Source: a virus
Lineage: Duplodnaviria; Caudoviricetes
Reading direction: 5' to 3' (one strand)
DNA length: 36,855 nucleotides
Virus record (IMG/VR): IMGVR_UViG_3300037461_000269
Location: 1 to 36,855 of that record
Shown: in pieces, positions 2,347 to 23,207 of the stretch
How the letters are laid out: each line of letters opens with the position of its first letter
How positions within the stretch are numbered: the stretch's first letter is position 1
Translations under genes and position numbers: made by a program
The notes under the pieces: generated by a model
The model's input: only the letters and a program-made list of their open reading frames with translations
Told to the model about the DNA's origin: nothing
Database searches by the model: none

Positions 2347-2446
2347 ACGAAGAATCTGGCCCTTCGTGAGTTTGTAAAAACTCAAAGGATTATTCATAGA
2401 GCGGTCAGAGCGGAGAAATCCGTGCTTTATGGATAATCCTTTTTTA
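2347..2446 (+). ncRNA. Candidate structured RNA / leader (three consecutive hairpins ending in a U-tract)
   Basis: ACGAAG/CTTCGT stem; GAGTTT-GTAA-AAACTC; 19-bp stem 2384-2402/2424-2442 (2 G-U pairs) enclosing CGGA-GAAA-TCCG; followed by a T-run. Confidence 0.55.
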
Positions 2447-2461
2447 ATTTTAGGTTTATCG

Positions 2462-3016
2462 ATGTCAAAAAAAAGAAAATCATTATCAAAAAAAATAAGA
2501 TTTGAAGTTTTTAAAAGGGATGGTTTTACTTGTGCGTATTGTGGAAAAACCCCACCCGAAGTTATTCTTGAAATTGATCATATTGATCCGATATCGAAGG
2601 GCGGCAAAGATAATATAAATAATTTAATTACAGCTTGTTTTGATTGTAATAGAGGGAAGGGAGATATTAAATTAAATTTAATTTCTCCTGGAATGATTGA
2701 AAATTTTGAAATTTTAAAATTAAAAGAAGAACAATTAAAAGAATATAAAAAACTAACCGCCGAAATAAAAAGACGAATAAATAAAGATATAAAAAAAATT
2801 GAAAATATTTTTATAAAACATTTTCCTCAATATGGGTTTTCGGATTCTTTCAGGGTGTCAATAAAGATTTTTTTAAAATCTTTTACTGTTGATCAATTAT
2901 GTGATAATATGCAAATATCATGTTCTAAATTTTATAATGAAGAAAATTGTGATATTTTATTAAGATATTTCTGCGGAATATGCTGGAATCAAATAAGAGA
3001 AAAAAAGAATGGCTAA
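2462..3016 (+). CDS. HNH endonuclease domain protein
   Basis: RFEVFKRDGFTCAYCG...LEIDHIDPISKGGKDNINNLITACFDCNRGK. Start could be 2429 or 2462. Confidence 0.9.
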   Translation: MSKKRKSLSKKIRFEVFKRDGFTCAYCGKTPPEVILEIDHIDPISKGGKDNINNLITACFDCNRGKGDIKLNLISPGMIENFEILKLKEEQLKEYKKLTAEIKRRINKDIKKIENIFIKHFPQYGFSDSFRVSIKIFLKSFTVDQLCDNMQISCSKFYNEENCDILLRYFCGICWNQIREKKNG

Positions 3017-11415: not shown

Positions 11416-11431
11416 TTTATAGGTGGTGGCC

Positions 11432-12658
11432 ATGAAAAAGAAAAAAGTATTATTTCTCGGCGGGTCTGCTTTTCAGGTATTCCCGATTATGTACGCAAAG
11501 GGAAAATATAAAACGATTCTGTGTGACTGGGGGCATTGCCCAGGTGAAAAAATTGCAGATGTATTTTATAAAGTCAGCACGACGGATGTAAAAGCGTTAA
11601 TCAAGGTATGCGATAAAGAAAAGCCGGACGCCATTGTTTGCTATGCGTCCGACCCGGCGGCCCTTCCAGCGGCGATACTATGCGAAAAATACGGACTGCC
11701 GACGAATCCCGTTTCGGCGGTCGAGATCCTTTCGGATAAAAATAAATTTCGGTCGTTTTTGAGAGATAATAATTTTCATACGCCGCGCCATGCTGAAATT
11801 GAAAAAATAGACTATAATTATGTGTTTATCAATGATGTTAAATCTAAAGATTTTATTTTTCCGGTTGTCGTCAAGCCTTCCGATTCATCCGGGAGCCGGG
11901 GCGTAACGGTTGTAAAAAATGAAAAGGATATTTTTGACGCGCTTGTTTTTGCTGAAAAATATTCCCGAAACGGAAAATTTATCATCGAGGAATATGTCGA
12001 GAAAAAGGGCCCGCAGATAGCCGGGGACGGATTCGTAATTGACGGGAAACTGGTTTTTCGATGTTTTATGAATGAACATTTTGACGAAGGGTCACTCGTG
12101 CCGATAGGAGAGTCATATCCCTGTTTACATAGTGAGAAAATCCAAAAAAAAGTACATAACGAAATTCAGCGGCTTTTTGTTTTGCTCGGCATTAAACATG
12201 GTGCGTTTAATTTTGATGTTCGCATCGATAAAAAAGATAATGTTATTCTCATGGAAATCGGGCCGCGAAATGGTGGAAATCTTATTTCTAATGCGATTAA
12301 ATATATTACAGGAATTGATTTAATAGCCGCGACAGTTGAGGCCGCATTTGGCAATTATAAAGATGTATATCAGATTTTGCCGAATTTACCGGAACACGTT
12401 AAGTGGGGCGGATATTTTTCAACATTTATAATTCACGGGTATAAAAGCGGAAAATATAAAAATACATGGATGTCCTTGCCGCCTATTATTTCAAAAATAA
12501 ATAATCTTGTATTTATGAAAAAATTTGGCGACCATATTGAACGCTTCACCGGTTCCGATAATACGATTGGTGCATTCGTCGCGAATTTCCCGACTATGGA
12601 AAAAATGCTTGATTTTATGAATGATTCTGATAAATACATTAGAGTAGAGGTCGAATGA
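11432..12658 (+). CDS. ATP-grasp domain protein (sugar-nucleotide cluster type)
   Basis: LFLGG, DKNKFRSFL, FPVVVKPSDSSGSRGV, IIEEYV, MEIGPRNGGN. Confidence 0.92.
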   Translation: MKKKKVLFLGGSAFQVFPIMYAKGKYKTILCDWGHCPGEKIADVFYKVSTTDVKALIKVCDKEKPDAIVCYASDPAALPAAILCEKYGLPTNPVSAVEILSDKNKFRSFLRDNNFHTPRHAEIEKIDYNYVFINDVKSKDFIFPVVVKPSDSSGSRGVTVVKNEKDIFDALVFAEKYSRNGKFIIEEYVEKKGPQIAGDGFVIDGKLVFRCFMNEHFDEGSLVPIGESYPCLHSEKIQKKVHNEIQRLFVLLGIKHGAFNFDVRIDKKDNVILMEIGPRNGGNLISNAIKYITGIDLIAATVEAAFGNYKDVYQILPNLPEHVKWGGYFSTFIIHGYKSGKYKNTWMSLPPIISKINNLVFMKKFGDHIERFTGSDNTIGAFVANFPTMEKMLDFMNDSDKYIRVEVE

Positions 12659-13359
12659 ATTTCGGAATATATACATCGGGGAACGCGACAAGAATTCGAT
12701 CGCTTTTATCAAATATTGAGAATTCATCCTGGACCGTTTTCCCGGTCTTTCCAAAAATTTTAAACGGAATAAAAGCGATAGTTTACGACGGTAAAAATAC
12801 AGAGGTATGTTCGGAACTTGAAAAGCATATCCCGAATACCGTCTTGATTGATTATACCGATATACCGAAGGAATTGAAAAATAAATATTTATCCGATGAA
12901 ATCCTGAAAATATCGCATGAAGAAAAAATCGATTACTGGATTGTAAACGGCGGGCGGATCCTTGAGGGCAAATTATTAACAGAATATGAAAACAGAATGA
13001 TAAATTTTCATCCAGGATTATTGCCCGCATATGCCGGACCGCTTGCGATTACAAGGGCAAGGCAGGACGGTGCGGTTTTATCCGGAATAACTGCTCATTT
13101 TATAGATGCCGGAATGGACACGGGGCCGATCATTTTGCAGGGCGTTGCCCCGATTCGGGGAATGACGGACGATCAGATTTTAAATTCTCAGATGTCGGCT
13201 ATGCTTCAAGTTTTTGTCTGGTTGATTGACAATCGAATTTCAGTAAATGGCCGGATCGTCACCGTTAAAGATGCGGAATTTCCGGCGGGATTTTACTATC
13301 CGAATCTTGATTTTTTTCGGGGTTTTTCTGAACCGAAAGACGGGGAAAAAATACAATGA
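12655..13359 (+). CDS. Formyltransferase (PurN/Formyl_trans_N fold; likely sugar N-formyltransferase)
   Basis: SGNAT, INFHPGLLPAYAG, GITAHFIDAGMDTGPII. Confidence 0.88.
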   Translation: MNFGIYTSGNATRIRSLLSNIENSSWTVFPVFPKILNGIKAIVYDGKNTEVCSELEKHIPNTVLIDYTDIPKELKNKYLSDEILKISHEEKIDYWIVNGGRILEGKLLTEYENRMINFHPGLLPAYAGPLAITRARQDGAVLSGITAHFIDAGMDTGPIILQGVAPIRGMTDDQILNSQMSAMLQVFVWLIDNRISVNGRIVTVKDAEFPAGFYYPNLDFFRGFSEPKDGEKIQ

Positions 13360-14429
13360 CCATTCAATTAACACGGCCGATACTGCCGCCGCTTGAGGAA
13401 ATTATGGCGGAACTGTCCCCATCCTGGGAATCGGGTCGGATTTCAAATTTCGGTCCGAAACATTTTGAACTTGAGGAAAAATTAAAAGATCGTCTCGGGG
13501 TTGAATATGTATCGTTATTCAATAACGGGACGACGGCCCTGATTTCAGCGATTCAGGCGTTGCGACTTTCGGGTGAGGTTATCGTCTCGCCGTTTACGTT
13601 CCCGGCGACGATTCACGCCCTTGAATGGAATGGCATAACCCCTGTTTTTTGTGATATTAAAGAATCGAATATGACAATTGACCCGCTGAAAATTCCGGAA
13701 TTGATTACATCAAAAACGACCGGAATAATCGGGGTTCATGTTTTCGGAAATACTTGTGATCATATTGAAATTGACAAAATCGCCAGGGAATACGGATTGA
13801 AGGTTATATATGACGCGGCCCATGCGTTCGATCGGAAGGGGATCGGAAACGTCGGGGATGTTTCAATGTTTTCATTTCATCCGACTAAATTGTTTCATAC
13901 GGGCGAGGGGGGGGCTTTAACATTCAAGGATCCCGATTTATATAAACGACTTTATTATTCCAAAAATTTCGGCATAAAATCCGAAACGGAAATCGTGTCA
14001 GCGGGAATAAACGGCAAAATGTCGGAAATCCAGGCCGCCCTCGGTCTTGTCATATTGCGATATGTTGACGAAGAAATTAACAATCGGAAAAAAATCAGTT
14101 TTATTTATGATGAATTTTTTATGAAAAATTCTGATAATTTTTTGATTTCGTTCGCAAGATCGGCGGGAATGCAATATTATTTAATAAAGTGTTATGATGA
14201 TGGGAAATTTTCAAGGGATTCGATTTATAACAGATTGCGGCAACATGACATTTTTTCACGTAAATATTTTTATCCCTTATGTTCGGATCTTGCTTGTTAT
14301 AGGAATTCACCCAGGGGGGATTTGAGTGTTTCGGAAGATACATCGAAACAGGTCCTTTGTCTCCCGTTTTACGGGGACCTTAAAAAAATGGAGGTTGAGC
14401 AAATATGCGACATTTTATTAAATGCTTAA
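13356..14429 (+). CDS. DegT/DnrJ/EryC1/StrS aminotransferase (VioA-like NDP-4-keto-6-deoxysugar transaminase)
   Basis: NNGTTAL, PFTFPAT, VIYDAAHAF, FSFHPTKLFHTGEGG (PLP lysine), GINGKMSEIQAALGL, RKYFYP. Confidence 0.95.
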   Translation: MTIQLTRPILPPLEEIMAELSPSWESGRISNFGPKHFELEEKLKDRLGVEYVSLFNNGTTALISAIQALRLSGEVIVSPFTFPATIHALEWNGITPVFCDIKESNMTIDPLKIPELITSKTTGIIGVHVFGNTCDHIEIDKIAREYGLKVIYDAAHAFDRKGIGNVGDVSMFSFHPTKLFHTGEGGALTFKDPDLYKRLYYSKNFGIKSETEIVSAGINGKMSEIQAALGLVILRYVDEEINNRKKISFIYDEFFMKNSDNFLISFARSAGMQYYLIKCYDDGKFSRDSIYNRLRQHDIFSRKYFYPLCSDLACYRNSPRGDLSVSEDTSKQVLCLPFYGDLKKMEVEQICDILLNA

Positions 14430-14971
14430 CAATTATTATTATCGTTTTATGCGGATGCGGGATCGCATTTAGAGAAAAGGCGGGGCCGTCGCCGTCGATC
14501 TGCTGGGTCGGGGATAGTCGGATCGAATGGTTTCAAAACGAAAAATATTTCAATAATCATCAATGGAATATCGGATTGCGGGGGATGACGTCGGAAATGA
14601 TGATCTCCGAAATATTTGAAATTAAGTTATTGAATCCCGATATAACGATTATTTCAATTGGCATAAATGACGAGGTATTGTATAATTATTCTGGATTCAT
14701 CGGGCGTCTTGATTTTATGATTTCTGAATTGTCCCCATTTACTCGGTTGATTATAACAAACATCGTTCCGAATGTATACTATAATGAAACCCGGCAAATA
14801 ATGAATAATAATTTAAACGCATTATGTATGGCCAGGGGCGTTCAATTTGTCGATTTGGTCGGGATGGAATTGACCGACGGTGTCCTGAATGATATTTACA
14901 CTTATGACGGATGTCATTATAACGAGGCCGGACAAGCAGAATTTGCGGCATTGATTAAAGCGGCTTTATGA
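14405..14971 (+). CDS. SGNH/GDSL hydrolase with lipoprotein-like signal peptide
   Basis: GDS, GLRG, GIND and DGCH blocks; N-terminal MRHFIKCLTIIIIVLCGC. Confidence 0.85.
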   Translation: MRHFIKCLTIIIIVLCGCGIAFREKAGPSPSICWVGDSRIEWFQNEKYFNNHQWNIGLRGMTSEMMISEIFEIKLLNPDITIISIGINDEVLYNYSGFIGRLDFMISELSPFTRLIITNIVPNVYYNETRQIMNNNLNALCMARGVQFVDLVGMELTDGVLNDIYTYDGCHYNEAGQAEFAALIKAAL

Positions 14972-15274: not shown

Positions 15275-15277
15275 GAC

Positions 15278-15306
15278 TTGACAAAAATTATGAATGTGTA
15301 TATTAT
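15278..15306 (+). promoter_or_regulatory. sigma70-type promoter for the packaging operon
   Basis: TTGACA, 17 nt spacer, TATTAT, then GGAG RBS and terS ATG. Confidence 0.8.
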
Positions 15307-16978: not shown

Positions 16979-18379
16979 ATGATAAAACAATATATACAGC
17001 GCAGGCTTAAAAATTTTGTTGTTGATATGCTTTACGACGAAACAACGGGCCGGGGCGGTGAATACGATTCTACGACCAGGCTAACCGGACAGCGCGGAAT
17101 ACGGTCAAGCGTTCAGTACAGGACATTATATTCGTCAAATGGATTTATTCAGAATATCATTGAACAGCCTGCCGAGGATGCGACGCGAGAATGGATTGAT
17201 GTCGAAACCAACCGAGATGAAGATTTAAAAATAAATCGCTTAATTTTGAACCGTATGGACGACCTGGGATTACAACGCAAAATAAAGGACCTGATAAAAT
17301 TTTATCGGATGTTTCCTAAAGGGTCGATGTTGTTTTATGGCGTTATCGCTGATAAGCCGGTGACGGATGAAATATTAAAAACTCCAATTATGCTTGAAAC
17401 GGTTCAGGAAATAGATTTTATAAACGTGCTTGAAAACCCCGACCATTTTCATTTCAGGATTGAAAACCAGACTGACCCGACAAAGGCTGATTTCAATAAA
17501 CCGAGTTTCATGTTGATGGGGAAACCGGTTGATTCAAGCCGCGTGTCATGGATGTGTAATAATTTCGATCCGACCTTGTTAATGGGCATATCCATAATCG
17601 ACGTTATCTTTGATGCTATATCCGCCCAGGATTCCGCGTTATGGTCAGTGTCATCAATGGTTCAGGACATGGCGACAAAGATTTTTAAAAGCGATATAAT
17701 CCGATCGATGAAGAAATCCAAAATAACCGAATTGCTTTTAAAACTGAAAAATGACATGAACACCGCTTCCGCCGTTGCAATCGGCAATGATGAAGATTAT
17801 CAAAAACTTATTCATGGTGTGACGACGGGCATGGGCGAAGTGTTTGAATTTATTTTTGATAACCTCGGCGGAGTGTCCAGGATGCCGAGAAATACATTGC
17901 TCGGGAAGGCGCATGGAGTCGTTACCCAGGGCGAATATGACACGTTGAATTATTACGCAAATATAGCAAAATTTCAGGAAAATGATGTACGGGCAGTTAT
18001 CAAGAAAAATATTGATTTAATCATACATGAACAGCGCGGCGAGATATACAAGGCGCTTGGCGGGAAGGTCGAATCTCTTGACGTTGAATTTACATTTAAA
18101 AGCTTGTGGAAACTTGACCCGGTAAGTCAGGCGGATTCAGATCTTAAAAACTCACAGCGAGACCAGATAGACATTGACTGCGGGAAATGTAATCAGATTG
18201 AAGCGCGCTCCCTTGACCCGCGTATGGATAACTTGGAAGATTTCAGGGAGATACCAGAGATAACTCCGGAGCAGGCGGCGATTAAAAATCCGGATGTCCC
18301 GGTCATCGAAAAGGCTCCCGGAGTTGACCCTCGGACAGGAAAGGAATTTAATATCCCGGAGACGAAACCGGCAGAATGA
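16979..18379 (+). CDS. Portal protein (DUF1073 type)
   Basis: Position after terL; LYSSNGFIQNIIEQPAEDATREW, SRMPRNTLLGKAHG, YYANIAKFQEN, FKSLW. Confidence 0.88.
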   Translation: MIKQYIQRRLKNFVVDMLYDETTGRGGEYDSTTRLTGQRGIRSSVQYRTLYSSNGFIQNIIEQPAEDATREWIDVETNRDEDLKINRLILNRMDDLGLQRKIKDLIKFYRMFPKGSMLFYGVIADKPVTDEILKTPIMLETVQEIDFINVLENPDHFHFRIENQTDPTKADFNKPSFMLMGKPVDSSRVSWMCNNFDPTLLMGISIIDVIFDAISAQDSALWSVSSMVQDMATKIFKSDIIRSMKKSKITELLLKLKNDMNTASAVAIGNDEDYQKLIHGVTTGMGEVFEFIFDNLGGVSRMPRNTLLGKAHGVVTQGEYDTLNYYANIAKFQENDVRAVIKKNIDLIIHEQRGEIYKALGGKVESLDVEFTFKSLWKLDPVSQADSDLKNSQRDQIDIDCGKCNQIEARSLDPRMDNLEDFREIPEITPEQAAIKNPDVPVIEKAPGVDPRTGKEFNIPETKPAE

Positions 18380-20040
18380 AAGTAAAAAAGAAATCATATC
18401 CGCACCACCTTGAAAAAATGATGGAGGGGATTTATCTTTCCGTTATTAAGGATCTGGACAAACGCATGAGGGCACGGATAATAGCATCCTACGAATCGAA
18501 CATAAAAGTAGACGCGTCATTCAACGACGGCATAAAAGAAATAATTGACGATGCAACAGGGTATTTGAAATCAATTTATATGTCGCATATGATTGAACAG
18601 GTTACAAAGAAGATTGCTAAATGGTCACAAGATCAGGTTTACGGGATGCTGAACAAATTAAAAGACATGCCGTCAACCCGTGACTTTGCCGAACTCGCAG
18701 TAAAGTACGCAATGGACGACCCACTGGTCGAAGCATTTTCCGCTGACTATGTTCAGAAAAATATTGAACTCGTCGATGCACTCGGCAAGGAATATATCGA
18801 TGGAGTGGCGCAGGCCGCGCAGGATACGTTTATTAACGGCGGGTCAATGGCAGAATTGACGGAAACCATGTCGGGGTTTACTGCGGGCAGTATGGAAAAG
18901 GCCGCGTTCTGGGCGCGTGATCAGGTCGGGGATGCTTACGCCTCATTTACGGAAACGATGCATAAAAAGGCCGGGTTTCCCAACTATATCTGGCATACCG
19001 TCGGGGATAGTCGTGTTCGAGGTATGAAGAAATCAGATCAAACAAGCCATGTTATTTTAAACAACCGTGTTTTCTCATGGGAACGTGGGGCCGCATATAC
19101 GGGACAGATTAGCAAGCCGGGCGGAAAGCATCCCGGACAGGATTATAATTGCGTGACACCCAAAACGCAAATTTTATTCGACTCTGATGTAAAAAGATGT
19201 TACCGGCATTTTTTTAAAGGTGAATTGACCCATATTGTTACGGCTACGGGAATAATTTTGGACGTGACACCGAACCATCCTATACTGACGACTTCCGGAT
19301 GGAAAGCCGCGAAGGACATTAATTTCGGAGATTATCTTATTAAGATTTCCGATAAGGCTGTCAACATCTGCAAAGAGGATGTACATTACGGAATAGGAAT
19401 GGCCGAGGAGGTATTTGATTTTTTTAAGTTGCGCTTTCCGGTAAAAAGGGTTTGTGGTTTCACATCTCAATTCCACGGCGACGGCTCCGATCAGGAAGTC
19501 GATGTTATAACCATTGACGGGGGCCTGATGGATAAATTCAATTTCAAGTTTTTCAAGGGCGTTTTTAAATTCGTTCTCTCCATGACCAATAAGATGTGGC
19601 CGTGGATTATTAAAACGACTTATGGCTCTTTTCCTGATTTCTTTAATCGTATGTTTTCTTCCGGTGCAAGCGCGTCGCGCGGCCTCGGTAATTTTTTTTA
19701 TTTCATCCGTGGACATTTTGGAAAATCGGATACAGCTGGCTTGCGATCCGTTGCGGGGAATGACGCCATGAGATATGAGTCTTTTACGGATAGACGGGCG
19801 GGATATTTTATATTTCCGAGAACATTCAAACTCGCTCATGCCGGAAATATAATCCTTAACAAGAGATTTCTCATCGATAAATTTGAAGTTGCGCGGGTGA
19901 CTTCTGTCGATAGGATTCATTATGATGGCCTCGTTTATAATTTTGAGACATCCGATGGTATATATTATACAAATCTATTGTCAAGTCATAATTGCAGATG
20001 CAATGCCGAGGGAACCTTCGACAAGGCCGAGGACGAATGA
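18376..20040 (+). CDS. Head morphogenesis protein (MuF / SPP1 gp7 family) containing an intein; spliced product 273 aa
   Basis: WARDQ, YIWHTVGDSRVR...H and HPGQDYN|CRC motif split by a 281-aa insertion. Confidence 0.93.
   Translation: MKVKKKSYPHHLEKMMEGIYLSVIKDLDKRMRARIIASYESNIKVDASFNDGIKEIIDDATGYLKSIYMSHMIEQVTKKIAKWSQDQVYGMLNKLKDMPSTRDFAELAVKYAMDDPLVEAFSADYVQKNIELVDALGKEYIDGVAQAAQDTFINGGSMAELTETMSGFTAGSMEKAAFWARDQVGDAYASFTETMHKKAGFPNYIWHTVGDSRVRGMKKSDQTSHVILNNRVFSWERGAAYTGQISKPGGKHPGQDYNCVTPKTQILFDSDVKRCYRHFFKGELTHIVTATGIILDVTPNHPILTTSGWKAAKDINFGDYLIKISDKAVNICKEDVHYGIGMAEEVFDFFKLRFPVKRVCGFTSQFHGDGSDQEVDVITIDGGLMDKFNFKFFKGVFKFVLSMTNKMWPWIIKTTYGSFPDFFNRMFSSGASASRGLGNFFYFIRGHFGKSDTAGLRSVAGNDAMRYESFTDRRAGYFIFPRTFKLAHAGNIILNKRFLIDKFEVARVTSVDRIHYDGLVYNFETSDGIYYTNLLSSHNCRCNAEGTFDKAEDE
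19174..19920 (-). CDS. Antisense-encoded putative homing endonuclease (HTH + NUMOD3-like + DUF559/Vsr-like PD-(D/E)XK domain) nested in the intein
   Basis: DYISGMSEFECSRKYKISRPSIRKRL (HTH), TGRKHTIKEIRKRAIS (NUMOD3-like), GENEFKNALEKLEIEFIHQAPVNGYNIDFLIGAVAVEL (DUF559-like); own GAGG RBS and promoter. Confidence 0.82.
   Translation of the reverse strand: MNPIDRSHPRNFKFIDEKSLVKDYISGMSEFECSRKYKISRPSIRKRLISHGVIPRNGSQASCIRFSKMSTDEIKKITEAARRACTGRKHTIKEIRKRAISRFNNPRPHLIGHGENEFKNALEKLEIEFIHQAPVNGYNIDFLIGAVAVELRCETTNPFYRKAQLKKIKYLLGHSYSVMYILFADVDSLIGNLNKIISEINVLRGFPSGSRQYRMVRCHVQNYSRSRNNMGQFTFKKMPVTSFYIRVE
19929..19984 (-). promoter_or_regulatory. Antisense sigma70-like promoter and RBS inside the intein C-terminal coding sequence
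   Basis: Minus strand: TTGACA (19984-19979), 18 nt, TACCAT (19960-19955); GAGG (19932-19929) 8 nt before ATG 19920. Confidence 0.65.
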
Positions 20041-20315
20041 GCGGACTTGTTGAGATGTATCTTGACTATTGCTCCGGGATGAAAATTAGGGAGCTTGAAC
20101 GTAAGTATCATTTATCTAAAGCCTCGATCTTGAATAAATGCAAGCAGATAACCGTCCAGTTATACACGAGAGATGGTTATTTTGTATATCGCAATATTTC
20201 TAAAATTAAAAACGACATAAGCGTGGCCGTGCAAATTTTGAACACCTGTCCGCATTGCGGTCAAGAAATATCAGAGGAGAGCGAAAGTGAAGAAATCCCT
20301 TCCGAACAGAATTAA
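20037..20315 (+). CDS. Small HTH protein with C-terminal CPHC
   Basis: GAGG RBS, ATGA overlap with the MuF stop; DYCSGMKIRELERKYHLSKASI. Confidence 0.7.
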   Translation: MSGLVEMYLDYCSGMKIRELERKYHLSKASILNKCKQITVQLYTRDGYFVYRNISKIKNDISVAVQILNTCPHCGQEISEESESEEIPSEQN

Positions 20316-21291
20316 AATCAAGGTCATGTCAGAGGCGTCATTCGGCGCGTGTTCATGGTATCGATCGTTTGGAGTATTGTCAAAATTAAGTCACAAGATC
20401 CCCGGTTTATTTGTGGAGCCGCTAAATCTGCGCGACTGGAACGACATAGCAGATACGGACGTAGTATTTTTTGAGCGTCCAGGGCAATTGCATTTCGAGC
20501 CGAGCTTCAATCTTATAAAAGATTACGGGTTGAAATTATGGCTCGATTTCGACGATGATCTTTTCAGCGTACCAATTAAACCATTTAATCCATCCGGAAA
20601 TCATTTCAACGACCCTAAAGTGCAAAAAGTCATTCAGAAATATTTAAGCATGGCGGATGTTGTAACCGTATCAACCGAGGCAATAAAAGACGCATACAAG
20701 GAATACTGCGACCCGATAATTATCCCGAACGCTTTTAATGATTATAATTACGACTGGACATACAGGCGGTCAACAGCAAAGGGGATAATGTGGCGCGGGT
20801 CGATCTTCCATCGATTTAATTTGAAAATTGCAAAGCAAGCGATTCTTGCCGCAGAGAAAAACTTTCCCGAATGGAGATGGAAATTTATAGGCGAGGCAGC
20901 GGGGGATATATGGTCGGAAATGAAAAACGCTGATTTATTTTTTGATACGGCCACGGTTAAATACATGAAGATGCTCCCCGAAATGAATTGTTCAATCCAG
21001 GTTTTCCCACTTGTGGATGATAAATTTAATAGGGCGAAGTCAAACTGCTCATGGGTTGAGGGAACATGGGCCGGGGCGGTTATGCTCGCTCCTGATTTTC
21101 CGGAATATAGACGACCGGGAATAACCAACTATACGGATATGCCGGACTTCTATCAGAAATTGTTGCACTTGATAACCGAGGATGGAACGCGTAAAAAGAA
21201 TTTTGACGATTCTTTTAAGTTTATAAAAGAAAATTATCTGTTATCTCATGTCAACGATCAGCGCGTCGAGATACTAAAAGGACTCTTATGA
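20287..21291 (+). CDS. Glycosyltransferase (GT-B / GT4-like)
   Basis: ACSWYR, DFDDDLF, ADVVTVST, IPNA, WRGS, PLVDDKFNRAKSN..WVE pattern of phage glycosyltransferases. Confidence 0.85.
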   Translation: MKKSLPNRIKIKVMSEASFGACSWYRSFGVLSKLSHKIPGLFVEPLNLRDWNDIADTDVVFFERPGQLHFEPSFNLIKDYGLKLWLDFDDDLFSVPIKPFNPSGNHFNDPKVQKVIQKYLSMADVVTVSTEAIKDAYKEYCDPIIIPNAFNDYNYDWTYRRSTAKGIMWRGSIFHRFNLKIAKQAILAAEKNFPEWRWKFIGEAAGDIWSEMKNADLFFDTATVKYMKMLPEMNCSIQVFPLVDDKFNRAKSNCSWVEGTWAGAVMLAPDFPEYRRPGITNYTDMPDFYQKLLHLITEDGTRKKNFDDSFKFIKENYLLSHVNDQRVEILKGLL

Positions 21292-21869
21292 TTCACCCTG
21301 AAAACAACTGGTTCACATATCCCAGTCTATATCAGTCAATGGTTGACCGGTTCGCGTCCGGGGCGTGGTTCGTCGAAGTTGGCTCATGGACGGGCATGTC
21401 TGCGGCGGGTATGGGCCGAATGATAAAAGAGTCAGGGAAGGATATTCGCCTTGACTGCGTCGATGCGTGGAACCCCTGGCGATATCCGGAATTATTCCCG
21501 ATTTCCAAGTCGAGCGCATACTGGGAAACCGTATTTGAATTATTGACTGACTGGGATTCTGTTTATCGGTCATTTCTGAAAAATACCGAATCGTTTAAGG
21601 GGATTATAAATCATATCAAGGGCAGGTCGATTGACGCGGCCAGACTATATCCAGATAGGTCTATAGATTTTATTTTTATCGACGCCGGACACGAAAAAGA
21701 AGATGTTATCGAAGATGCGACGGCCTGGTTTCCGAAAATAAAAAAGGGCGGCATAATGGCGGGACACGATTATTATTCACATCCCGGAGTCAGACAAGCA
21801 GTCGATGAATTTTTTGGTAGCGACGTTGAATTATCCGAAAAAGAAAACACATGGCTGGTTTATTTATGA
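21288..21869 (+). CDS. Class I SAM-dependent methyltransferase (Methyltransf_24-like)
   Basis: FVEVGSWTGMS, CVDAW, DFIFIDAGH, KKGGIMAGHDY. Confidence 0.92.
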   Translation: MIHPENNWFTYPSLYQSMVDRFASGAWFVEVGSWTGMSAAGMGRMIKESGKDIRLDCVDAWNPWRYPELFPISKSSAYWETVFELLTDWDSVYRSFLKNTESFKGIINHIKGRSIDAARLYPDRSIDFIFIDAGHEKEDVIEDATAWFPKIKKGGIMAGHDYYSHPGVRQAVDEFFGSDVELSEKENTWLVYL

Positions 21870-22465
21870 ACCTGTTTGAATATATTTTCAGGAAGTATGA
21901 AACCGACAAAGTAACAGCGTGGGGATATCAAGATGCATATGAAGATTCATTTTTGGCGATTCGATTTGATGTAAAGCTTGTGTTTGAAATCGGCGTATTT
22001 CAGGGCGGGAGCCTTCACGGATTCAGCGAGTATTTCCCGAATGCCTTGATTATCGGGATTGACGTAAATGAAAAATGTTATTTCGGGCATGACAGAATAA
22101 AAGTTGAAATCGGGGACGCGACAGATAAAGAATTTATCGACGGCCTTGTTTTAAAATATGGCGAACCTGATATCGTTATTGACGATGGATCACATACGAG
22201 CCTGGCAATCCGAAGGTCCTTCGATCTGCTTTTTAACAGGACTAAAATCTGTTATGTCATAGAAGATTTGACAACTCAATATCAAGAATACTGGACAGCG
22301 GGAAATGAGTCATTTTCCGTTATGATTCATCATTTAGTCGACGAGATACTCATGGCGCGGGACATGCTGAAATCAATAAGGATTTATCATTCAATTTTAT
22401 TTTTATTCAAAAAGGTGGTGGCTGATGAAAACGATAGTTGCGACTCAGGCATTTTGCAGAGCTGA
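21866..22465 (+). CDS. Class I SAM-dependent (sugar O-)methyltransferase
   Basis: YETDK, FEIGVFQGGS, IIGID, DIVIDDGSH, YVIEDL. Confidence 0.88.
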   Translation: MNLFEYIFRKYETDKVTAWGYQDAYEDSFLAIRFDVKLVFEIGVFQGGSLHGFSEYFPNALIIGIDVNEKCYFGHDRIKVEIGDATDKEFIDGLVLKYGEPDIVIDDGSHTSLAIRRSFDLLFNRTKICYVIEDLTTQYQEYWTAGNESFSVMIHHLVDEILMARDMLKSIRIYHSILFLFKKVVADENDSCDSGILQS

Positions 22466-23207
22466 ATTACTGGATAAATGTCTCGGTAATTTCTATGCCC
22501 GCAGGCGCGGGGATTATGAACACTGGATTTTGGTAAAGGGATATCCGATAAATCAGAAAACCAATGATGAGAACACGGTCAAAGTCGCCGAGAAATACGG
22601 ATGTAGAGTATTTTTTTGTGACGAGGAACATGTCGGCGTACATCAGGGATTAAACCAGTTTATTGAATTATGTCCAGCGGTTCAAGAGCCGGGAACGGCA
22701 TTGATAATATTCGAGCAGGACGCGCTGGTTGAGCGACTTTCAACCGGATTTGACGTTGCACTTGCCGAAACTATGGATCAGGCGCGAAACATCGCTCCGG
22801 TGATTTGTATGTGGGGCCGCCATATTGATGAGAAATATTTCGGACAAAAAAAGATATATGACGCGGGGAAAGTAATCGTTGCGGGAAACACCTTGATTTT
22901 AACGCCGACGACCCTGGAGGTATATTCCGTCGCCGTGTACGACCTGGATTTCGTGCGGAAGATTGGCGGGTTCAACGAGCCGAATCCGTTTTATGGTTAT
23001 TGGGAATGGTTTTTTGCTGAAAAACTTCTTGAACATGGGAAGCGACTTGGATTTTTAACGGAATATCGCGAACATTACGAGGATATATCCGCGTTCGTCG
23101 ATCCTGAATATAATCAGTACAAATGGGATGCGGCGCACGCCGAAAAACGATTTAACGGGTCATTTCGGGACTGGTTGAAAGAAAAACATCCCGATTTGAT
23201 CGATTAG
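22425..23207 (+). CDS. Putative glycosyltransferase (GT-A / GT2-like)
   Basis: RAELLDKCL N-terminus, GVHQGLN, FEQD (DxD-like), VRKIGGFNE...YGYWE. Confidence 0.6.
   Translation: MKTIVATQAFCRAELLDKCLGNFYARRRGDYEHWILVKGYPINQKTNDENTVKVAEKYGCRVFFCDEEHVGVHQGLNQFIELCPAVQEPGTALIIFEQDALVERLSTGFDVALAETMDQARNIAPVICMWGRHIDEKYFGQKKIYDAGKVIVAGNTLILTPTTLEVYSVAVYDLDFVRKIGGFNEPNPFYGYWEWFFAEKLLEHGKRLGFLTEYREHYEDISAFVDPEYNQYKWDAAHAEKRFNGSFRDWLKEKHPDLID

What the first reader, a model, noticed from the sequence alone, without database searches (positions are those of the whole stretch)
19921..19992. Promoter and Shine-Dalgarno for the antisense gene are written into the intein's C-terminal splicing motifs
Seen on the minus strand: gacTTGACAatagatttgtataatataTACCATcggatgtctcaaaattataaacGAGGccatcataATG. 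This gives a perfect -35, an 18-nt spacer, a TAnnnT -10 (plus an exact TATAAT within the spacer) and GAGG 8 nt before the start. The gacTTGACAa context matches the terS promoter at 15275-15284. The intein end reads NLLSSHN rather than the usual NG(I/V)(I/V/L)(V/S)HN, and the L-S codons (ttg tca a) are exactly the reverse complement of TTGACA. Inference: about 70 bp code for splicing blocks F/G, a promoter and an RBS at once. This would uncouple nuclease expression from late head-gene expression and produce antisense RNA against MuF/portal.
Basis: partly seen in the sequence, partly recalled or inferred. Interest (0 to 1): 0.82.

Follow-up and report, generated by a model that had tools for sequence, protein, structure and literature searches.

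The report
Nuclease start signals inside intein codons
A self-splicing protein insert (intein) in a phage head gene carries a predicted DNA-cutting gene on its opposite strand, and the intein's last 25 codons also spell that gene's start codon, a likely ribosome-binding site and a likely promoter; the layout is in print, but these shared signals, seen across dozens of relatives, appear not to be.

Summary
The sequence is as described. The MuF intein (19150-19992) holds an antisense Vsr-like nuclease gene (19920-19174); Gosselin 2025 published this architecture. Alone, the promoter is modest: p about 0.04 against synonymous shuffles, SD p 0.03. Across 46 non-redundant relatives the signal is strong. 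Promoter scores beat the null in 14 of 46 against 5 of 93 ordinary inteins; SD energies reach -5 kcal or lower in 27 of 46 against 5 of 93. TTGACA lies in the last ten codons in 11 of 46 (1.3 expected). All five members of the window's clade keep it at Leu-Ser codons. In 35 of 46 the start is the reverse of block-F His. Here, as in 10 others, it has moved; in 9 of these 11 a stronger SD sits at the new place. Unsupported: a special terS link, timing uncoupled from head genes, antisense reaching portal. No RNA data exist, and the EDxHD histidine is missing. The scan noted this before on other genomes (four notes).

The parts
18376..20040 (+). MuF-like minor capsid / head morphogenesis gene with intein (554 aa)
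   Evidence: Pfam Phage_Mu_F E=1e-4, TIGR01641 E=5e-6, both below their cut-offs; follows terS, terL and portal
19150..19992 (+). Class-1-type intein, 281 aa, Cys1...His-Asn, followed by Cys; inserted in HPGQDYN/CRC
   Evidence: Pfam Intein_splicing E=1e-7, below cut-off; block B TPNH conserved; same site in relatives
19174..19920 (-). Antisense Vsr/DUF559-like nuclease gene, 248 aa, codon-aligned with the intein frame
   Evidence: 342 relatives at E<=1e-30; model pLDDT 88, best fold match I-Bth0305I 3r3p E=6e-4; conserved in its own frame
19918..19920 (-). Nuclease ATG, the reverse of intein His codon CAT, four codons further in than the family's usual block-F His
19929..19932 (-). Likely Shine-Dalgarno GAGG from Gly-Leu codons, 8 nt before ATG
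   Evidence: duplex -5.9 kcal, synonymous p=0.033; the family's usual SD position scores +2.2 here
19933..19944 (+). Intein block F core V-Y-N-F (block name recalled)
   Evidence: sequence; aligned with relatives
19955..19960 (-). Likely -10 box TACCAT from Asp-Gly-Ile codons
   Evidence: clade relatives keep A and T at the key positions with 16-17 nt spacers
19964..19969 (-). Alternative -10 hexamer TATAAT from Tyr-Tyr-Thr codons; no good -35 at proper distance
   Evidence: largely forced by the amino acids (inference)
19979..19984 (-). Likely -35 box TTGACA from Leu-Ser-Ser codons just before the terminal His-Asn
   Evidence: synonymous p=0.018; same place in 5 of 5 clade members
15278..15306 (+). 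terS promoter-like site TTGACA-17-TATTAT (comparison; would be convergent with the nuclease promoter)
   Evidence: 11 of 12 consensus
18970..18984 (-). Weak terminator-like hairpin 190 nt after the nuclease stop
   Evidence: folding no better than shuffles, z=-0.54

Best explanation
The intein's last 25 codons also spell, on the opposite strand, the start codon of an antisense nuclease gene and what are likely its ribosome-binding site and host-type (sigma70) promoter, so the predicted homing nuclease likely has its own transcript and the signals would travel with the intein. Steps: (1) MuF precursor is made from the head operon and the intein splices out (inferred from motifs). (2) Host RNA polymerase starts near 19948 on the minus strand from TTGACA-18-TACCAT (predicted). 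(3) Ribosomes load at GAGG and start at 19920 (predicted; the ORF is shown to be conserved in its own frame). (4) The nuclease cuts intein-free MuF alleles near N/CRC and repair copies the intein (inferred from homing endonucleases in general). The signals look selected: synonymous choices favour them family-wide, lineages build the -35 from different amino acids, and start and SD have moved together in this lineage.
For: Promoter p<=0.05 in 14 of 46 relatives (combined z 7.5). Controls: 5 of 93 ordinary inteins (z 0.4), 2 of 46 sense strands, 3 of 40 N-extein segments. One row drawn per group still gives z 2.8-6.2 over 24 groups. TTGACA in the last ten codons: 11 of 46 (1.26 expected) against 0 of 93 (0.56 expected). 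It is built from L-S-S/I, V-K, V-S-S, V-S-N and L-C-Q in different branches. The window's clade (99/99) keeps xTG-TCA-A in 5 of 5 while nearby codons vary. Start at block-F position 1 in 35 of 46 (34 CAT, 1 CAC read as GTG); His stands there in 4 of 93 controls. The SD-forming Leu is CTC in 22 of 32 against 5 of 36 (p=5e-6). In 11 relocated starts the CTN codon is mostly lost (2 of 11 against 29 of 35, p=2e-4) and the new SD is stronger than the old position in 9 of 11. Nuclease-frame identity exceeds intein-frame identity in 5 of 5 pairs.
Against: No RNA evidence. The window alone is borderline (p 0.03-0.05 over three runs; about 0.10 with an extended -10). An equally good minus-strand site, TTGACA-17-TACCAT, lies at 20383 inside another gene. 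32 of 46 relatives do not reach p<=0.05, and L002, L022 and L026 have weak -10 boxes (CAnnnT). L022 keeps the signals but has an in-frame stop. Starts were picked as the first ATG/GTG 57-81 nt in, so '46 of 46 have a start' is by construction. Controls have a different block F type. The weight matrix is a recalled E. coli one and the host is unknown. The EDxHD His is absent in the window protein.
Confidence: 0.7

Rival explanations
1. Start codon and SD are real, but this promoter is not the one used. The transcript comes from elsewhere: the TATAAT at 19969, the TTGACA-17-TACCAT at 20383, or a phage-specific promoter.
For: SD and start signals are more uniform than promoter signals. A second consensus site lies 400 nt upstream. 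L021 has TG-n-CATAAT at the place of the window's TATAAT.
Against: TTGACA is kept at synonymous sites in 5 of 5 divergent clade members, each with an A...T hexamer 16-18 nt on. The 20383 site would lie outside the mobile unit and falls on Trp-Tyr codons.
Confidence: 0.17
2. The signals are inherited relics. An ancestor expressed the nuclease, but this copy is decaying, silent or catalytically dead.
For: The EDxHD His is missing in 31 of 41 rows where the motif was read, including the window. It lacks the first helix-turn-helix of longer relatives. L022 has a stop.
Against: Intact 248-aa ORF with no listed differences in two runs that may be its source. E115, D141 and E150 are invariant in 20 rows, and E-x-R/K resembles PD-(D/E)xK. 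The SD and start were rebuilt in this lineage.
Confidence: 0.09
3. The motifs are chance by-products of intein amino acids in an AT-rich genome.
For: 49 TTGACA sites in the window; 42 promoter-like sites against 25.5 expected in 9 kb.
Against: Synonymous nulls hold the amino acids fixed and are exceeded only on the antisense strand of nuclease-bearing inteins.
Confidence: 0.04

Closest known systems
Anti-sense VSR-like HEN inteins of actinobacteriophages (Gosselin, Arsenault, Gogarten; bioRxiv 10.1101/2025.01.02.630785; sections 8 and 15 and passages read)
   Same: Contiguous intein, Vsr-like nuclease on the antisense strand, match to 3R3P; minor capsid is among their host genes. The window's nuclease hits MuF genes of Gordonia phages such as Vivi2 and Keitabear.
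   Different: [quoted passage not shown] Here the start, SD and promoter lie in blocks F/G, and the nuclease end overlaps the N-terminal splicing region.
EDxHD homing endonuclease I-Bth0305I (PMC3239194, passages read)
   Same: Vsr-like catalytic fold behind helical DNA-binding repeats.
   Different: Intron-encoded; the catalytic His is not kept in the window protein.
T-even intron and free-standing homing endonucleases with their own embedded promoters (PMC2988022, passages read)
   Same: Nuclease-specific promoter and SD embedded in a host transcription unit.
   Different: Those are sense-strand, use T4 middle or late promoters and often RBS-hiding hairpins; none is written in protein-splicing codons. 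No significant hairpin here.
Fractured genes with Vsr-like nucleases between split inteins (PMC2677866, passages read); out-of-frame dnaX intein nuclease (10.64898/2026.09.14.751524, introduction and section 11 read)
   Same: Nuclease as a separate ORF within or between intein parts; upstream signals noted (late promoter and hairpin; putative SD).
   Different: Split intein in one case, +2 frame LAGLIDADG in the other; no antisense promoter in blocks F/G described in what I read.

Membership tests
Class 1 intein | Cys/Ser at position 1, block B TxxH, terminal His-Asn, Cys/Ser/Thr at +1 (features recalled) | tested here: met
   C1, T40-P-N-H43, H-N/C; Pfam E=1e-7, below the curated cut-off
Class 1 intein | Removal restores the host protein motif | tested here: met
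   Flanks read HPGQDYN and CRC, matching the MuF end; intein-free relatives show a like Cys motif (L067, L060)
Class 1 intein | Splices as protein | not testable with these tools
   needs expression
Anti-sense VSR-like HEN inteins (Gosselin 2025) | Both frames open; nuclease ORF on the antisense strand inside a contiguous intein | tested here: met
Anti-sense VSR-like HEN inteins (Gosselin 2025) | Vsr-like nuclease matching 3R3P; homologous to those in actinophage minor capsid genes | tested here: met
   profile hit 3r3p E=1e-4, Foldseek E=6e-4, Gordonia MuF hits to E=6e-22
EDxHD homing endonucleases | Vsr-like fold with conserved acidic residues | tested here: met
   E115, D141, E150 invariant in 20 rows, aligned to 3r3p
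EDxHD homing endonucleases | Catalytic histidine (H213 of I-Bth0305I) | tested here: not met
   Asn seven residues after E150; His there in 10 of 41 rows read. Not filed as EDxHD; likely works like one.
EDxHD homing endonucleases | Cleaves the uninterrupted allele | not testable with these tools
   needs assay
Sigma70-type promoter | TTGACA, 16-18 nt, TAnnnT | tested here: met
   10 of 12, spacer 18
Sigma70-type promoter | Conserved beyond coding need | tested here: met
   borderline for the single site
Sigma70-type promoter | Mapped transcription start | not testable with these tools
   no RNA holder listed

The most novel reading that the evidence does not exclude
Intein blocks F and G work as a portable expression cassette. 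A nuclease lying antisense and codon-aligned gets ATG from His and an SD from Asn-Leu, and selection for its promoter then rewrites the splicing motif's amino acids, repeatedly and by different routes (L-S-S, V-K, V-S-S). With the promoter wholly inside the intein, the element makes its nuclease from host polymerase as soon as the DNA enters a cell, independent of the host gene, while its RNA dampens head-gene expression. This would explain why antisense nuclease inteins persist and spread widely.
Probability: 0.4. Interest if true: 0.72.

Novelty: new variant of a known kind. Interest (0 to 1): 0.55.

Why it matters
Gosselin 2025 leaves open whether antisense intein nucleases are expressed or become pseudogenes. 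A sense mRNA cannot yield them, so they need their own promoter and ribosome site. These data place both in the splicing motifs and make the question testable with a 75-bp reporter. It is a compact case of one stretch coding a protein motif, a promoter and an RBS, with natural relocation events as built-in controls. The family is wide and mostly unannotated: 100 phage records matched, and only 1 of the 14 records opened annotates the nuclease, the free-standing one.

Tried and rejected
Pfam, NCBIfam, PHROGs and single-sequence PDB searches do not name the nuclease; profile and fold searches were needed. A viral scan with the intein protein found nothing. Scans with alignments A2 (genomes) and A3 (viral) could not run for lack of conserved stretches, so no control set of same-site MuF inteins without a nuclease was obtained; a MuF-site DNA pattern gave one locus, which also has the nuclease. 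Sequencing runs: no RNA holder listed; the DNA contigs show no variants or joints, and two may be the source. The terS context match was rejected as a by-product of Ser-His codons. No significant RBS-hiding hairpin (z -0.3 and +0.3). A crude terminator scan found a hairpin of -8 kcal or lower before a U run in 1 of 40 loci and missed the window's weak site, so it is only a hint. Rows dropped: of 75 loci plus the window, 5 had no NCxC end in range (L050 cut; L060, L067 free-standing; L071 ends NCRS; L074 another host gene), L072 was mis-parsed (second site), L041 is a broken near-copy of L056; 69 were reduced to 46 at 85% identity. L056 was too short for the tree. Controls: 120 loci, 119 parsed, 93 kept; two with long antisense ORFs (L136, L155) stayed in unexamined. 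Literature: searches found no paper placing these signals in blocks F/G; Gorbalenya 1998 is not held, and bioRxiv supplements were closed.

Full report
Setting. The window is a 36,855-base linear virus record with a contractile-tail gene set. All long ORFs are on the plus strand except one. The head module runs terS, terL, portal, MuF. MuF (18376-20040) holds a 281-aa intein at 19150-19992 that starts with Cys, has TPNH in block B and ends His-Asn before Cys. Inside it, on the minus strand, lies a 248-aa ORF (19920-19174).

Observation. The -35 comes from Leu-Ser-Ser codons, the -10 from Asp-Gly-Ile, the GAGG from Gly-Leu and the ATG from a His codon. The exact TATAAT lies 9 nt after the -35 and cannot pair with it. 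TTGACA alone is weak evidence, with 49 copies in the window. I therefore held the amino acids fixed and resampled synonymous codons. The best promoter score has p=0.036 and the SD p=0.033. Only 2 of 193 antisense tiles score as high. The weight matrix and anti-SD were recalled E. coli values.

The antisense gene is real. A profile finds 342 representatives at E<=1e-30. The AlphaFold model (pLDDT 88) matches the I-Bth0305I nuclease domain best, and the family profile hits the same structure. Against five relatives, identity is higher in the nuclease frame than in the intein frame, and the nuclease's third codon position varies most, except near the intein's N-terminal blocks. E115, D141 and E150 are invariant. 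The EDxHD His is absent here and present in 10 of 41 rows, so activity is inferred, not shown.

Relatives. I gathered 75 loci. After the drops listed under Tried and rejected, 46 non-redundant rows remained, all with the nuclease antisense in a MuF-type intein before C-x-C. Controls were 93 ordinary viral inteins found by a block F pattern.

Start and SD. In 35 of 46 the start codon is the reverse of the residue before V-Y-N-L: 34 CAT and one CAC. Controls have His there in 4 of 93. The Leu that forms the SD is CTC in 22 of 32 against 5 of 36 controls. SD energy is -5 kcal or lower in 27 of 46 against 5 of 93. The window is one of 11 exceptions: that His is Leu, Asn-Leu is Asn-Phe, and a His four codons further in supplies the ATG with a new GAGG. 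Among the 11, the CTN codon survives in 2 (against 29 of 35), and the new position scores better than the old in 9. They sit in several branches of the tree. This joint movement is the best sign of selection on translation.

Promoter. Scores exceed the synonymous null at p<=0.05 in 14 of 46 (15-16 in repeat runs), combined z 7.5. Controls give 5 of 93, the sense strand 2 of 46 and N-extein segments 3 of 40. One row per group keeps z between 2.8 and 6.2. Exact TTGACA lies in the last ten codons in 11 of 46 (1.26 expected) and 0 of 93 (0.56 expected). The window's clade (five rows, 99/99, nearest 49% identical) keeps xTG-TCA-A in all five, each with an A...T hexamer 16-18 nt on, though three of these -10 boxes are weak. 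Other branches build the box from V-K, V-S-S or V-S-N, L051 and L054 reaching a perfect TTGACA-17-TATAAT; some put the -35 in the C-extein. Against this: most rows are not individually significant, the window is borderline, and an equal site lies at 20383.

The gac context shared with terS follows from Ser-His codons and is not kept in three clade members. terS and the prohead protease have the same promoter type, so timing need not differ. The nuclease RNA must be complementary to about 775 nt of MuF-intein message. Whether it runs on to portal is unknown: the one hairpin downstream is weak and no conserved terminator appeared in a crude scan.

Mechanism. Shown: the overlap, the conserved ORF, and the excess and joint movement of the signals. 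Inferred: transcription from near 19948 by host polymerase, translation from 19920, cutting of intein-free MuF alleles and homing. Since the -35 lies inside the intein here, the whole unit would move together.

Known and new. Gosselin et al. described antisense VSR-like nuclease inteins, with minor capsid among the host genes of non-canonical inteins. Their main text does not contain 'promoter'. T-even nucleases with embedded promoters are a sense-strand analogue. My searches found no paper on signals in blocks F/G. Four earlier notes of this scan report the same idea on other genomes; they are unchecked, and I tested the claim afresh. Verdict: a new variant of a known kind, interest 0.55.

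Noticed in passing
L067:455-1348 (Acinetobacter phage IME285) and L060:~1270-2109: Relatives of the nuclease stand free, convergent, just downstream of an apparently intein-free MuF gene, with upstream signals in intergenic DNA: a possible before or after state of the intein form.
   Followed up: partly
L072:~1140-2100 (Mycobacterium phage Sejanus gp8): Same intein type at a second MuF site (before CTIDG); the nuclease ATG is again the reverse of the block-F His, with AAGG from Asp-Leu.
   Followed up: partly
L074:865-2217 (Rctr197k_003): Same intein type inside what looks like a dCMP-deaminase gene (my reading of the sequence), annotated 'head morphogenesis protein'; the nuclease match is partial.
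   Followed up: no
L022:~1474-2231: Nuclease has an in-frame TGA at codon 33 yet keeps GGAGGT and TTGACA; recent loss or sequencing error.
   Followed up: partly
window 20383-20355 (-): Second TTGACA-17-TACCAT on the minus strand inside the glycosyltransferase-like gene, 400 nt upstream of the first.
   Followed up: partly
window 2298, 15278, 23241 (+): Sigma70-like promoters in gaps before the HNH/replication genes, terS and the prohead protease.
   Followed up: partly
window 11423-14971 and 20287-23207: Sugar-modification-like genes (formyltransferase, aminotransferase, glycosyltransferase, methyltransferases) flank and interrupt the head module.
   Followed up: no
window 2429-3016: Free-standing HNH endonuclease gene.
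   Followed up: no
L071:~1090-1200 (Salmonella phage vB_STM-ZS): Same layout with TG-n-TATAAT from Ile-Ile-Ala codons; 62 Salmonella phage records matched the nuclease.
   Followed up: partly
L155, L136: Two control inteins have long antisense ORFs (343 and 190 aa) starting near block F.
   Followed up: no
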